Origin: Candidatus Helarchaeota archaeon
GTDB lineage: Archaea; Asgardarchaeota; Lokiarchaeia; Helarchaeales; RDOG01
Direction of reading: 5' to 3'
Assembly: GCA_019058315.1 (NCBI GenBank)
Contig: JAHPZH010000009.1
Location: 136,307-200,306, forward strand
DNA length: 64,000 nucleotides
The translations under genes were made by a program, and so were the position numbers. A model generated the notes under the pieces. It was not told the DNA's origin. It saw only the letters and a list, made by a program, of their open reading frames with translations, and did no database searches. Below are positions 2,114 to 15,484 of this stretch, piece after piece; within the stretch, counting starts at the first letter, position 1; each line of letters begins with the position of its first letter.

Positions 2114-2927
2114 TATATATCCTCCTCCTTTGATATTTCAGTTTCAATTTCTTTATCAAGTTGACTATATTTTCCCTTTATCGTCTGAATTTGAATTTCA
2201 TTTAATTTTTCAATTCCTTTTTCAGCAATATCCAAGGCTTTACGCATTTCATCAAATGTTATTTGACCATCAAATTGCAAAAGTGTATATGATTTAGATC
2301 GTGGCATCATTGCAATTGGTAAATCTCCCAAACCTTCTTTATCTTCAACATCCGATAAATCTAGAACTAATGTGGGTGGATCAGGATTTGCAATTTTACC
2401 TACTGCTACACCACAAACAAGGTCGCGTAATGATATTCCAGCATCCGCTAGAGCTAAAGAAGCCGCAGTAACCGCAGCACAACGTGTACCACCATCTGCA
2501 CAAAGGACTTGGATAAAAACATCTATTATAGTTTTTGGATAATATTCAAGAAATATTGATGATTCCAAAGCTTGTCGTAAAATTAGCGAAAGTTCGACTT
2601 CCCTTCTAGATGGGGCAGGAGATTTTCTCTCATCTACTTTATTCCAAATTATTCACTCGGTATAATTTAAGCGAACGTAGCCATGCGATAAAGTACTCGC
2701 AAAACTGCCGCATCTTGACGGGCTAAATGACGAGGGTGAACTTCACGTGGTCCATAAACTGCGACCAAAATTTTATTCTTTCCCATATTTATTAAAGCAG
2801 AACCATCTGCTTTTGTTAATAATCCCATCTCCATTGAGACTGGTCTTAATTCATCATATTTCCTATTATCTGTTCTTATTCCATCCCTAATTAACCAATC
2901 AGCTGGGACTTGTTTAAAAAGTGCCAT
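2113..2927 (-). CDS. rrp41: Exosome catalytic subunit Rrp41, intron-containing: join(2927..2671, 2638..2113), about 260 aa after splicing
   Basis: The ORF-track pieces 2667..2936 and 2113..2568 are the two halves of an RNase PH fold (VYGPREVHPRH; DGGTRCA; GDLPIA). Removing 2639..2670 gives YRMATFA-VDERKSPAPSRREVELS in frame. GGTGA SD lies 6 nt before ATG 2927. Confidence 0.93.
2639..2670 (-). other. 32-nt bulge-helix-bulge intron in rrp41 mRNA
   Basis: Minus strand reads CUAC-GUUC-GC^U-UAAAUUAU-(9 nt)-AUAAUUUG-GAAU-AA^A-GUAG: outer helix, 4-bp central helix, two 3-nt bulges and an 8-bp intron stem. Confidence 0.9.
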
Positions 2928-10000: not shown

Positions 10001-11094
10001 ATGGTAAAGACTGGAATAATATATCATGAAGATTATTTAAAACATGATACTGGAGATCATGTTGAAAATAAAAAAAGATTGATTGCCACTTTGGATTTAT
10101 TTAATGAATACAAAATTTTTGAGCATCCTAATATCATTAAGATTTCCCCAAATCCAGCATCTATTAAGGAAATTCAAAGAGTTCATAAAGCATTTTATAT
10201 AGAAAAAGTCCGGGAAAAATGTTTAAGTGGTGGGGGCTGGCTTGATGCTGATACAATTGTCTCTCCAGATAGCTACAATGTTGCATTATTAGCTGCTGGA
10301 GGAGCAATACAAGCAGGTGAGATGGCTGTAAAAGGTAAAATTGACAATGCTTTTTGTTTAATACGTCCTCCAGGACATCATGCCGGACCAGGGGTTGCTA
10401 GAGGATTTTGTGTATTTAATAATATTGCCATTGTTGCAAAATCTTTAATTGCGAGGTTTGAAGAGGTCAATAAAGTCTTAATATTTGACCACGATGCACA
10501 TTAAAAAAGAAATTTTCTTTTTTAAGCATATACGCAGGTAATGGAACCTCGCAAATTCTATATAACGATCCAAATGTGCTATTATTTGATTTTCACCAAC
10601 ATCCGCGAACACTCTATCCTGGAACAGGTTATATAGATGAAATAGGTGAGGAAGAAGGAAAGGGATATAATATAAATTTACCTATGGTTCCCCGTGCTGG
10701 TGATGCTCAATATCTAGAAGTTATTGATGAATTATTCATTCCAATTATTAATCAATTTAAACCTGATATTGTTCTAGTTTCAGCAGGATTTGATACTCAT
10801 TTTTCTGATCCCATTACACAACTCAATATAACAATTCAAGGATATGGAGAAATCGTTAAAAAAATAAAAAAAGAGGCAAAAAAAGTCTGTGCTGGGAAAA
10901 TTATAATTATGCTTGAGGGTGGATATGATTTAAAAGCACTATCTCAGGGAATTCTAACTGAAATATCTGTACTTGGAGATTTAGGTATTGAATTTATAGA
11001 AAATCCTCCTAAAATTGAAGAAGCTATAGTAGATTACAATAGAAAAATGATAGATAAATTAAAAGAAGTTTTAGGTGCTTATTGGAAATTTTAA
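10001..11094 (+). CDS. Histone deacetylase-family (class II-like/AcuC) Zn-dependent deacetylase, intron-containing: join(10001..10499, 10532..11094), about 353 aa
   Basis: HVEN..RL, RPPGHHA, GFCVFNN, DHDAH|AGNGT, HQHPRTLYPGTG, SAGFDTH, LEGGY. ORF-track pieces 9929..10504 and 10576..11094 join in frame when 10500..10531 is removed. Confidence 0.92.
10500..10531 (+). other. 32-nt bulge-helix-bulge intron in deacetylase mRNA
   Basis: CG-AUGC-AC^A-UUAAAAAAGAA-auu-UUCUUUUUUAA-GCAU-AU^A-CG: perfect 4-bp central helix, two 3-nt bulges, 10-11-bp intron stem, short outer helix. Confidence 0.9.
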
Positions 11095-14931: not shown

Positions 14932-14967
14932 AAAAATTCTTTATATAGAATAGCTCCGGTAGTGTAG

Positions 14968-14997
14968 ACGCAAATTAACGAAAATCTTGCGACAAAA
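14968..14997 (+). other. tRNA intron 1 (30 nt, position 15/16)
   Basis: GUGU-AG^A-CGCAA...UUGCG-ACAA-AA^U relaxed BHB (one mismatch in central helix). Confidence 0.82.
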
Positions 14998-15022
14998 TCC
15001 GGTCAAGCATAAAGGGCTCTCG

Positions 15023-15050
15023 TTTATACGTAATTTTACTATAAAAAGAA
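15023..15050 (+). other. tRNA intron 2 (28 nt, canonical position 37/38)
   Basis: AAGGG-CUCU-CG^U-UUAUA...UAUAA-AAAG-AA^A-CCCUU relaxed BHB. Confidence 0.86.
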
Positions 15051-15058
15051 ACCCTTCG

Positions 15059-15083
15059 GCTGCTAATTTATTAGCAGGAGGAA
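15059..15083 (+). other. tRNA intron 3 (25 nt, variable loop, position 45/46)
   Basis: CCUU-CG^G-CUGCUAA-uuua-UUAGCAG-GAGG-AA^A. Confidence 0.85.
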
Positions 15084-15484
15084 ACCCGGGTCCGAATCCC
15101 GGCCGGAGCACCAATTTTTAATTTCTAATGATTTTATTTCTTGATTTATGATCAAATCTAATTTGGTATTATTGAAAAACTATATTTAGTTAAGGCGCGT
15201 ATTGGAAAATAGAGTTAAAAAATTTTATGATTATACTAAAATGAAATTTAGCTTTAATTTGATAATATTTATAAATTATTTTTAGTTCTACTACAAAAGA
15301 AAAATAGAAAATGTTATTAGAGGAAATACGATTTTTAATGAATATTATTTCTAATAATTCAATTTACTCAAATATAAAGAGATGATGCTCAAATTAAATT
15401 AATTTGTGCTAATATTTTTTGATAATGTCTTATCTGAATTATTGAGAGTTAAAAATTTTTTCCCATATAAGAGGATATGCTAAA

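What the first reader, a model, noticed from the sequence alone, without database searches (positions are those of the whole stretch)
10488..10539. 32-nt BHB intron splits the Zn-ligand His codon of an HDAC-family deacetylase
The region folds as central helix AUGC/GCAU, bulges ACA and AUA, and a perfect intron hairpin UUAAAAAAGA(A)/(U)UCUUUUUUAA. The outer helix is weak (CG/CG, then ACC/GGU). Splicing C|AC regenerates GAT GCA CAC GCA GGT AAT GGA ACC = DAHAGNGT, the metal-binding D-x-H motif, and joins in frame to the 10576 ORF. Unspliced RNA terminates directly after the His. Inference: protein deacetylation could be splicing-gated. The gene leads a same-strand run (tgtA, lsm, thermosome, tRNA-Glu) rich in RNA-processing functions.
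Basis: partly seen in the sequence, partly recalled or inferred. Interest (0 to 1): 0.9.

Follow-up and report, generated by a model that had tools for sequence, protein, structure and literature searches.

The report
tRNA-type intron inside deacetylase gene
A 32-base insert shaped like the introns that archaea cut out of tRNAs interrupts a zinc-dependent deacetylase gene of an Asgard (Helarchaeota-like) archaeon; comparison with relatives indicates that it must be spliced out of the messenger RNA, which has been published for only one other archaeal protein-coding gene (cbf5).

Summary
Window 10500-10531 is a 32-nt insert in an otherwise intact HDAC-family gene. Cutting after the second base of each bulge joins C|AC and restores DHDAHAGNGTS.

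Syntenic relatives without the insert encode a 353-aa protein, the predicted spliced length. One of them carries GATGCACACGCAGG, the 14 bases spanning the predicted junction. Two other assemblies carry the insert at the same site. Their changes fall only in the loop, in one bulge base, and in a compensated one-base-pair deletion (30 nt, so the frame relation differs).

Both exons are under purifying selection (dN/dS 0.16 at dS about 1). The genome encodes two EndA paralogues (alpha/beta-like) and RtcB.

I checked three further protein genes with the same kind of insert: rrp41, EF-2 and an HTH-CBS regulator. This scan had already reported such introns elsewhere in this genome.

No RNA data exist, so splicing is inferred. 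The "splicing-gated deacetylation" idea has no support, and relatives without the insert argue against a required regulatory role.

Verdict: very probably a real pre-mRNA BHB intron, a new member of the kind known from cbf5.

The parts
10001..10499 (+). Exon 1 of the HDAC-family deacetylase gene (ATG 10001; ends with the first base C of the His codon)
   Evidence: Pfam Hist_deacetyl 1-152/298, E 1.8e-37. Homologues P0001 and P0002 have the same 167-aa truncated reading. dN/dS is 0.11 against L031.
10500..10531 (+). 32-nt BHB intron (A + 11-bp hairpin with loop AUU + GCAU + AU)
   Evidence: Sequence and fold. It is unique in the genome. It is present with structure-preserving changes in L031/L032 (30 nt) and L033 (32 nt). 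It is absent from the syntenic L198 and L199.
10532..11094 (+). Exon 2 (starts with AC of the His codon; stop codon 11092-11094)
   Evidence: Pfam Hist_deacetyl 154-295/298, E 5.3e-48. dN/dS is 0.21 against L031. There is no conserved start codon near the junction: GTG 10576 in the window is GTC in L031.
10494..10497 (+). Central 4-bp helix, 5' strand AUGC (exon 1)
   Evidence: Pairs with GCAU 10526-10529. Invariant in all three intron-bearing variants.
10526..10529 (+). Central 4-bp helix, 3' strand GCAU (intron)
10498..10500 (+). 5' bulge ACA; predicted cut after 10499
   Evidence: The geometry (cut after the 2nd bulge base) was calibrated on this genome's tRNA-Met and tRNA-Ile introns, where it reproduces ARAGORN's intron bounds.
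10530..10532 (+). 3' bulge AUA; predicted cut after 10531
   Evidence: The first bulge base is U in L033, while the third base, which is exonic, is conserved.
10501..10525 (+). Inner helix h': 11-bp perfect hairpin UUAAAAAAGAA / UUCUUUUUUAA, loop 10512-10514
   Evidence: L031 has 10 bp, with one A and its partner U both deleted. The loop is AUU, AUA or GAA in the three variants.
10488..10493 (+). Outer helix h, 5' strand (ACC, unpaired A, CG) in exon 1
   Evidence: Pairs with 10533-34 and 10537-39. The helix is weak: 2 + 3 bp with a 1x2 internal loop.
10533..10539 (+). Outer helix h, 3' strand (CG, unpaired CA, GGU) in exon 2
   Evidence: Its synonymous sites are unchanged in the intron-bearing alleles but changed in the alleles without the insert, L198 and L199.
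10502..10504 (+). In-frame TAA that ends translation of unspliced RNA straight after His
   Evidence: CAT TAA is conserved in L031, L032 and L033.

Best explanation
Window 10500-10531 is an archaeal bulge-helix-bulge (tRNA-type) intron inside the coding sequence of an active-looking class-II-like HDAC/AcuC-family deacetylase. The pre-mRNA folds locally into h-B-H-B-h'. The splicing endonuclease (an EndA alpha/beta pair encoded on contigs C12 and C1) cuts after the second base of each 3-nt bulge. RtcB then joins the exons, recreating the His codon C|AC and the metal-binding motif DHDAHAGNGT, to give a 353-aa enzyme. Unspliced RNA would yield only a 167-aa fragment ending at His-stop. Shown: the structure, the exact restoration of the motif, and conservation of the insert. 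Also shown: the allele without the insert in relatives, selection on both exons, and the presence of the enzymes. Inferred: that cleavage and ligation actually occur on this mRNA. Splicing is most likely constitutive. The intron is one of several such micro-introns in protein genes of this genome.
For: (2) The Pfam halves abut at profile positions 152 and 154.
(3) Orthologues without the insert in five genomes of the same family or order are single ORFs of 356-400 aa. The three nearest (L002-L004) read DHD[AV]HAGNGTS.
(4) The syntenic close relatives L198 and L199 (74% identity) encode 353 aa, the predicted spliced length. L198 has GATGCACACGCAGG, identical to the ligated junction.
(5) Independent assemblies L031/L032 and L033 carry the insert at the same site. 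Their differences are confined to the loop, one bulge base and a compensated base-pair deletion. The lengths of 32 and 30 nt give different frame relations, so only precise excision works in both.
(6) Window against L031: exon nucleotide identity 77%, dS about 1.0, dN/dS 0.16 (0.11 and 0.21 for the two exons). All 24 aligned stem positions of the intron are identical, although synonymous third positions are only 65% identical.
(7) The genome has two EndA paralogues, one with the catalytic His context and one without it, and one RtcB.
(8) The cut rule reproduces tRNA intron bounds in this genome.
(9) The same architecture interrupts rrp41, EF-2 and an HTH-CBS gene, each with abutting Pfam halves. 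The EF-2 intron is at the same site in a genome of another genus, with an unrelated hairpin sequence but the same BHB.
Against: There is no RNA evidence of any kind.
- The outer helix is weak (2 + 3 bp with an internal loop). In a longer context the MFE uses a different outer pairing.
- In the L033 variant the MFE extends the central helix by a G-U pair, so the strict 3' bulge is not the lowest-energy form.
- Only three distinct intron variants exist, and no stem pair covaries by substitution, so the structural support rests on one compensated indel and on conservation.
- The genome is a metagenome-assembled one (94% complete, 6.6% contamination).
Confidence: 0.85

Rival explanations
1. The insert is a DNA-level lesion (a small palindromic insertion or footprint) and the gene is a pseudogene. 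The BHB-like fold is incidental.
For: The gene is broken in the raw reading. A perfect AT-rich palindrome could arise by replication slippage. The allele without the insert exists in close relatives.
Against: Both halves are under purifying selection over dS of about 1, with no further lesions in any of three lineages. The insert is far better conserved than synonymous sites, and its only length change is compensated. The BHB register coincides exactly with the boundaries needed to restore the motif, against a chance frequency of about 2e-4.
Confidence: 0.05
2. The intron is real and also acts as a regulatory gate. Deacetylase output would be set by EndA/RtcB activity or by conditions that change folding of the weak outer helix.
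For: The outer helix is weak and has alternatives. An immediate in-frame stop makes unspliced RNA non-productive. A negative-regulator role was proposed for the cbf5 intron (PMC2738675). Removal of the 5'UTR BHB intron seems to matter for expression of HVO_1309 in Haloferax (PMC7714728).
Against: Syntenic relatives at similar divergence lack the intron altogether. Similar introns sit in EF-2, rrp41 and an HTH-CBS gene, so nothing is specific to deacetylation. There are no data on splicing efficiency.
Confidence: 0.08
3. The break is overcome at translation (programmed frameshift or ribosomal bypass), or the enzyme is made as two polypeptides.
For: A stable hairpin follows the stop codon, as in some bypass elements.
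Against: The 32-nt and 30-nt variants give different frame relations (+2 and 0), and both contain the in-frame TAA. Matching take-off and landing codons (GCA or CAT) do not give the conserved motif when read on. Exon 2 has no conserved start codon. The break lies inside the D-x-H metal-binding motif.
Confidence: 0.01
4. The insert is an assembly or sequencing artefact.
For: The source is a metagenome-assembled genome. Laying contigs of the likely source run gave no piece over the insert.
Against: The same insert, with small natural differences, is found in contigs from three other sequencing runs.
Confidence: 0.01

Closest known systems
cbf5 pre-mRNA intron of Crenarchaeota (Watanabe 2002; Yokobori 2009, PMC2738675)
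   Same: It is a short BHB-type intron inside a coding sequence, in organisms with a hetero-oligomeric (alpha/beta) splicing endonuclease. It disrupts the codon of a catalytic residue. It is patchily present among relatives (gain and loss). The motif is often relaxed.
   Different: The gene family differs (HDAC-family deacetylase rather than pseudouridine synthase) and so does the phylum (Asgard rather than Thermoproteota). Here the intron is one of several in the same genome. Splicing of cbf5 was shown experimentally; here it is only inferred.
BHB intron in the 5' UTR of HVO_1309 mRNA, Haloferax volcanii (PMC7714728)
   Same: It is an mRNA substrate of the archaeal splicing endonuclease.
   Different: It lies in an untranslated region and does not interrupt a reading frame. 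Cleavage was shown in vivo and in vitro.
Multiple tRNA introns of Asgard archaea (preprint 10.64898/2026.10.13.758758)
   Same: The same motif, the same size class (tens of nt), the same enzymes and the same lineage. This genome's tRNA genes are also heavily interrupted.
   Different: The host RNA is a tRNA. That study reports no introns in protein-coding genes.
IRE1/RtcB unconventional splicing of HAC1/XBP1 mRNA in eukaryotes
   Same: It works alike in outline: a protein endonuclease recognises stem-loops and removes a short intron that changes the reading frame. In metazoans ligation is by RtcB.
   Different: The endonuclease is unrelated (IRE1) and the RNA motif differs. It is a proven regulatory switch; nothing here shows regulation.

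Membership tests
Archaeal BHB (EndA-type) intron | 4-bp central helix flanked by two 3-nt bulges on opposite strands | tested here: met
   AUGC/GCAU with bulges ACA and AUA is the MFE and centroid of 10488-10539. The same holds in L031. In L033 the strict form is a near-optimal alternative.
Archaeal BHB (EndA-type) intron | Flanking helices h (exon-exon) and h' (within the intron) | tested here: met
   h' is 11 bp and perfect. h is weak, 2 + 3 bp with a 1x2 internal loop, so this is a relaxed rather than a strict hBHBh'.
Archaeal BHB (EndA-type) intron | Cuts in the bulges give exons that join into the functional sequence | tested here: met
   Cutting after the 2nd bulge base gives DHDAHAGNGTS and 353 aa, which equals the relatives without the insert. 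The rule was calibrated on two tRNA introns of this genome.
Archaeal BHB (EndA-type) intron | Splicing endonuclease and RNA ligase encoded by the organism | tested here: met
   Two PF01974 genes (103 and 78 bits) and one RtcB gene (582 bits). The ORFs of 184 and 201 aa look like a catalytic and a non-catalytic subunit.
Archaeal BHB (EndA-type) intron | Structure conserved among homologous introns | tested here: met
   In three variants the changes lie only in the loop, one bulge base and one compensated base-pair deletion. The sample is small and there is no substitutional covariation.
Archaeal BHB (EndA-type) intron | Excision and exon ligation observed in RNA | not testable with these tools
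   No RNA run holds the stretch. The laid contigs do not cover the insert.
Zn-dependent HDAC / AcuC family (Pfam PF00850) | Profile match over the whole domain | tested here: met
   The two halves match positions 1-152 and 154-295 of 298, at 130 and 164 bits.
Zn-dependent HDAC / AcuC family (Pfam PF00850) | Catalytic and metal-binding residues (GHH, D-x-H, second Zn-ligand Asp, catalytic Tyr) | tested here: met
   The spliced product has PPGHHAG, DHDAH, SAGFDTH and EGGY. DHDAH aligns with DWDVH of HDAC6. Assignment of these as ligands rests on published HDAC structures, not on a model made here.

The most novel reading that the evidence does not exclude
This Asgard (Helarchaeota-like) lineage routinely runs messenger RNAs of housekeeping genes through the tRNA-splicing machinery. 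The affected genes include EF-2, exosome rrp41, RNase Z, a deacetylase and regulators. The micro-introns tend to sit in the codons of the most conserved, catalytic motifs, where the exon half of the BHB is held constant by protein constraint. Such introns are gained, and perhaps precisely lost, on short evolutionary timescales. That would be a protein-splicing-enzyme-based 'split gene' regime in the closest prokaryotic relatives of eukaryotes.
Probability: 0.6. Interest if true: 0.85.

Novelty: new member of a known kind. Interest (0 to 1): 0.72.

Why it matters
In the literature I could search, only one archaeal coding sequence (cbf5, in Crenarchaeota) is known to need BHB splicing. An HDAC-family gene that depends on it, in an Asgard archaeon and alongside similar introns in EF-2, rrp41 and other genes, would have two consequences.
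- It would show that enzyme-catalysed mRNA splicing is not a one-gene oddity in Archaea.
- It would make automated annotation of such genomes systematically wrong, because genes are called as two fragments or as pseudogenes.

It also gives a concrete, testable set of substrates for asking how interrupted protein genes are tolerated in the lineage nearest to eukaryotes.

Tried and rejected
**RNA evidence.** No RNA holder was listed for the stretch. Laying contigs of four DNA runs gave no piece across 10436-10587, so presence or absence of the insert in those samples could not be read.

**Genome-wide census.** I scanned for BHB motifs that join two open frames. Specificity was poor: 2260 hits with the true cut rule against 2005-2204 with frame-changing decoy cuts. 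It still recovered HDAC, EF-2, rrp41 and HTH-CBS among its strictest hits, but I give no genome-wide count.

**Search for relatives.** Scans of metagenome contigs and genome contigs with exon 1 returned only distant relatives (52% identity or less). None in the metagenome set was interrupted at this site; I did not check the genome contigs set for interruption. Contig L037 (P0003) is chimeric after residue 115 and says nothing about the intron.

**Copies and tRNAs.** The intron sequence has no other copy in the genome at up to 5 mismatches, so it is not a repeated mobile element. ARAGORN and Rfam find no tRNA in the window. Splicing out combinations of scanned BHB hits did not make ARAGORN call the tRNA-Glu.

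**Gain or loss.** The tree places the pair without the insert inside the intron-bearing group (84/93 support). The AU test does not reject a single intron clade (p 0.17), so gain followed by precise loss is not established.

**Alternative mechanisms.** Bypass and frameshift readings were worked through by hand and rejected.

Full report
**What is in the sequence**

The gene on the + strand from ATG 10001 reads as an HDAC-family protein up to ...LIFDHDAH and then meets TAA at 10502-10504. A second open frame, shifted by +2, carries the rest of the domain. Pfam Hist_deacetyl matches the first piece over profile positions 1-152 and the second over 154-295, so exactly one domain is interrupted and nothing is missing.

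- central helix AUGC 10494-97 / GCAU 10526-29
- bulges ACA 10498-10500 and AUA 10530-32
- an 11-bp perfect hairpin 10501-11 / 10515-25
- a weak outer helix, CG/CG plus ACC/GGU

Folding 10488-10539 alone gives this structure as both MFE and centroid (-10.5 kcal/mol, z -4.0). In 72 nt of context the MFE keeps the central helix, the 5' bulge and the hairpin but picks another weak outer pairing. The strict BHB then lies 1.4 kcal/mol higher.

**Is the cut rule right, and is this more than chance?**

I encoded the geometry as a 4-bp helix followed on each strand by a 3-nt bulge, with the cut after the second bulge base. I scanned the whole genome with it. It reproduces ARAGORN's intron start and length for tRNA-Met (41,19) and tRNA-Ile (38,63) of this genome. 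Applied here it removes 10500-10531 and joins C|AC, giving GAT GCA CAC GCA GGT AAT GGA ACC. A minimal BHB at a given position and length occurs with frequency about 1.8e-4 in this AT-rich genome. Here it coincides with the only register that restores the motif, or the sequence-equivalent register one base along.

**Relatives without the insert**

In 40 related genomes the orthologue is never interrupted. The five nearest are single ORFs of 356-400 aa. Those of the same family and the nearest order-level relatives read DHDAHAGNGTS or DHDVHAGNGTS.

A protein search found two closer full-length homologues (74% identity over exon 1) of 353 aa, which is the length of my spliced product. Their contigs L198 and L199 share the upstream CofC, CofD and nitroreductase genes and the downstream TGT; the longer locus, L198, continues into Lsm and the thermosome. 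L198 reads GATGCACACGCAGG across the site, identical to the predicted ligated exons. Eighty more distant metagenomic relatives are also uninterrupted or end at a contig edge.

**Relatives with the insert**

The same search, restricted to short proteins, found two 167-aa products that end where exon 1 ends. L031, with its duplicate L032 from another run, has the same downstream neighbours and carries a 30-nt insert. Its hairpin has lost one A and the paired U (10 bp) and its loop is AUA. L033 carries a 32-nt insert with loop GAA and UUA as the 3' bulge.

All differences lie in the loop, in the first bulge base or in a compensated base-pair deletion. No stem position differs. Because 32 and 30 nt give different frame relations and both contain the in-frame TAA, neither frameshifting nor read-through can serve both. 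Only precise excision can. L031 folds into the same BHB. In L033 the bulge change allows an extra G-U pair, so the strict form is a near-optimal alternative rather than the MFE.

**Selection**

Between the window and L031 the exons are 77% identical in nucleotides, with dS about 1.0 and dN/dS 0.16 (0.11 for exon 1, 0.21 for exon 2). Third positions of conserved codons are only 65% identical, yet all 24 aligned intron stem positions are identical.

A gene dead since before these lineages split would not look like this. An insert free to drift would not either. The exonic bases of the outer helix are unchanged in the three intron-bearing alleles. They carry synonymous changes in L198 and L199. 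This fits a structural constraint, but the sample is small.

**Machinery and context**

The genome has two PF01974 endonuclease genes and one RtcB. One endonuclease ORF keeps the His-containing catalytic context and the other does not. This looks like the alpha/beta heterotetramer type that accepts relaxed motifs, as in the Crenarchaeota that splice cbf5 (PMC2738675, PMC5829648).

Leads from earlier notes of this scan and my own scan pointed to other interrupted protein genes, and I checked three. rrp41 (window 2639-2670, minus strand, 32 nt), EF-2 (C6:81229-81259, 31 nt, after DTPGH) and an HTH-CBS gene (C5:499169-499201, 33 nt) all show the same architecture. In rrp41 and EF-2 the Pfam matches of the two halves abut; in the HTH-CBS gene the HTH_3 match stops at the break, at profile position 28 of 55. 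The EF-2 intron is present at the same site in a genome of another genus of the family. There its hairpin sequence is unrelated and one central pair changes from G-U to G-C, yet both fold as textbook hBHBh'. So the HDAC intron is one member of a set, not a special device of this gene.

**What the enzyme is**

The spliced product keeps PPGHHAG, DHDAH, SAGFDTH and EGGY. DHDAH aligns with DWDVH of HDAC6, whose Asp and His are Zn ligands by published structures. The intron therefore does split the Zn-ligand His codon. The nearest named homologues are from Candidatus Helarchaeota (about 60% identity).

**History**

The five close sequences form a clade. The tree puts the pair without the insert as sister to window + L033, with L031 outside (84/93 support). 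That would mean one gain and one precise loss. The AU test does not reject a single intron-bearing clade (p 0.17), so I leave this open.

**Interpretation**

The best reading is a genuine BHB intron, removed by EndA and RtcB from the pre-mRNA, most likely constitutively (confidence 0.85). A pseudogene, an artefact, and bypass or frameshift are each contradicted by specific results above.

Relatives without the intron and the presence of similar introns in unrelated genes argue against a role specific to this gene.

In the library searched, the only published BHB intron inside an archaeal coding sequence is cbf5, plus one in the 5' UTR of a Haloferax mRNA. The recent Asgard tRNA-intron preprint reports none in protein genes. 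This scan had already reported such introns on other DNA of this same genome (rrp41, RNase Z). Direct RNA evidence is missing and is the decisive next step.

Noticed in passing
window 2639-2670 (- strand): A 32-nt BHB insert splits rrp41 (...YRMATF|AVDERK...). The halves match RNase_PH profile positions 1-59 and 64-129. This scan had already reported it.
   Followed up: partly
G000:C6:81229-81259 (- strand; L200) and G001 locus L203 about 1466-1498: EF-2 is interrupted straight after DTPGH by a 31-nt BHB intron. A genome of another genus in the same family has a 33-nt intron at the same site, with an unrelated hairpin sequence but the same BHB fold. Other relatives are uninterrupted.
   Followed up: partly
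G000:C5:499169-499201 (+; L201 1170-1202): A 33-nt in-frame BHB insert containing a stop lies inside the helix-turn-helix of an HTH-CBS protein (...GVSQSLIAR|IETG...).
   Followed up: partly
window 14953-15113 (+): By eye this is a tRNA-Glu-like gene (GCTCCGGTAGTGTAG ... CCCGGGTCCGAATCCCGGCCGGAGCACCA) broken by several AT-rich inserts. ARAGORN and Rfam do not call it.
   Followed up: partly
G000:C3:627504-631783 (- strand): A dense cluster of about 19 ARAGORN tRNA calls lies within about 4.3 kb. Many have one or more predicted introns and several anticodons are duplicated. Its origin, cellular or mobile element, was not examined.
   Followed up: no
L199 338-973 (- strand): In the relative without the HDAC insert, the CofC gene is called as two adjacent pieces (123 and 85 aa), whereas L198 and L031 have one gene of about 215 aa. 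This could be a frameshift, an error or another short insert.
   Followed up: no
across the four interrupted genes: The inserts sit at codons of highly conserved motifs: the Zn-ligand His of HDAC, DTPGH of EF-2, and the HTH recognition helix. The cbf5 intron likewise disrupts a catalytic-residue codon (PMC2738675). A possible reason is that constrained exon sequence keeps the exon half of the BHB stable. This is inference only.
   Followed up: no
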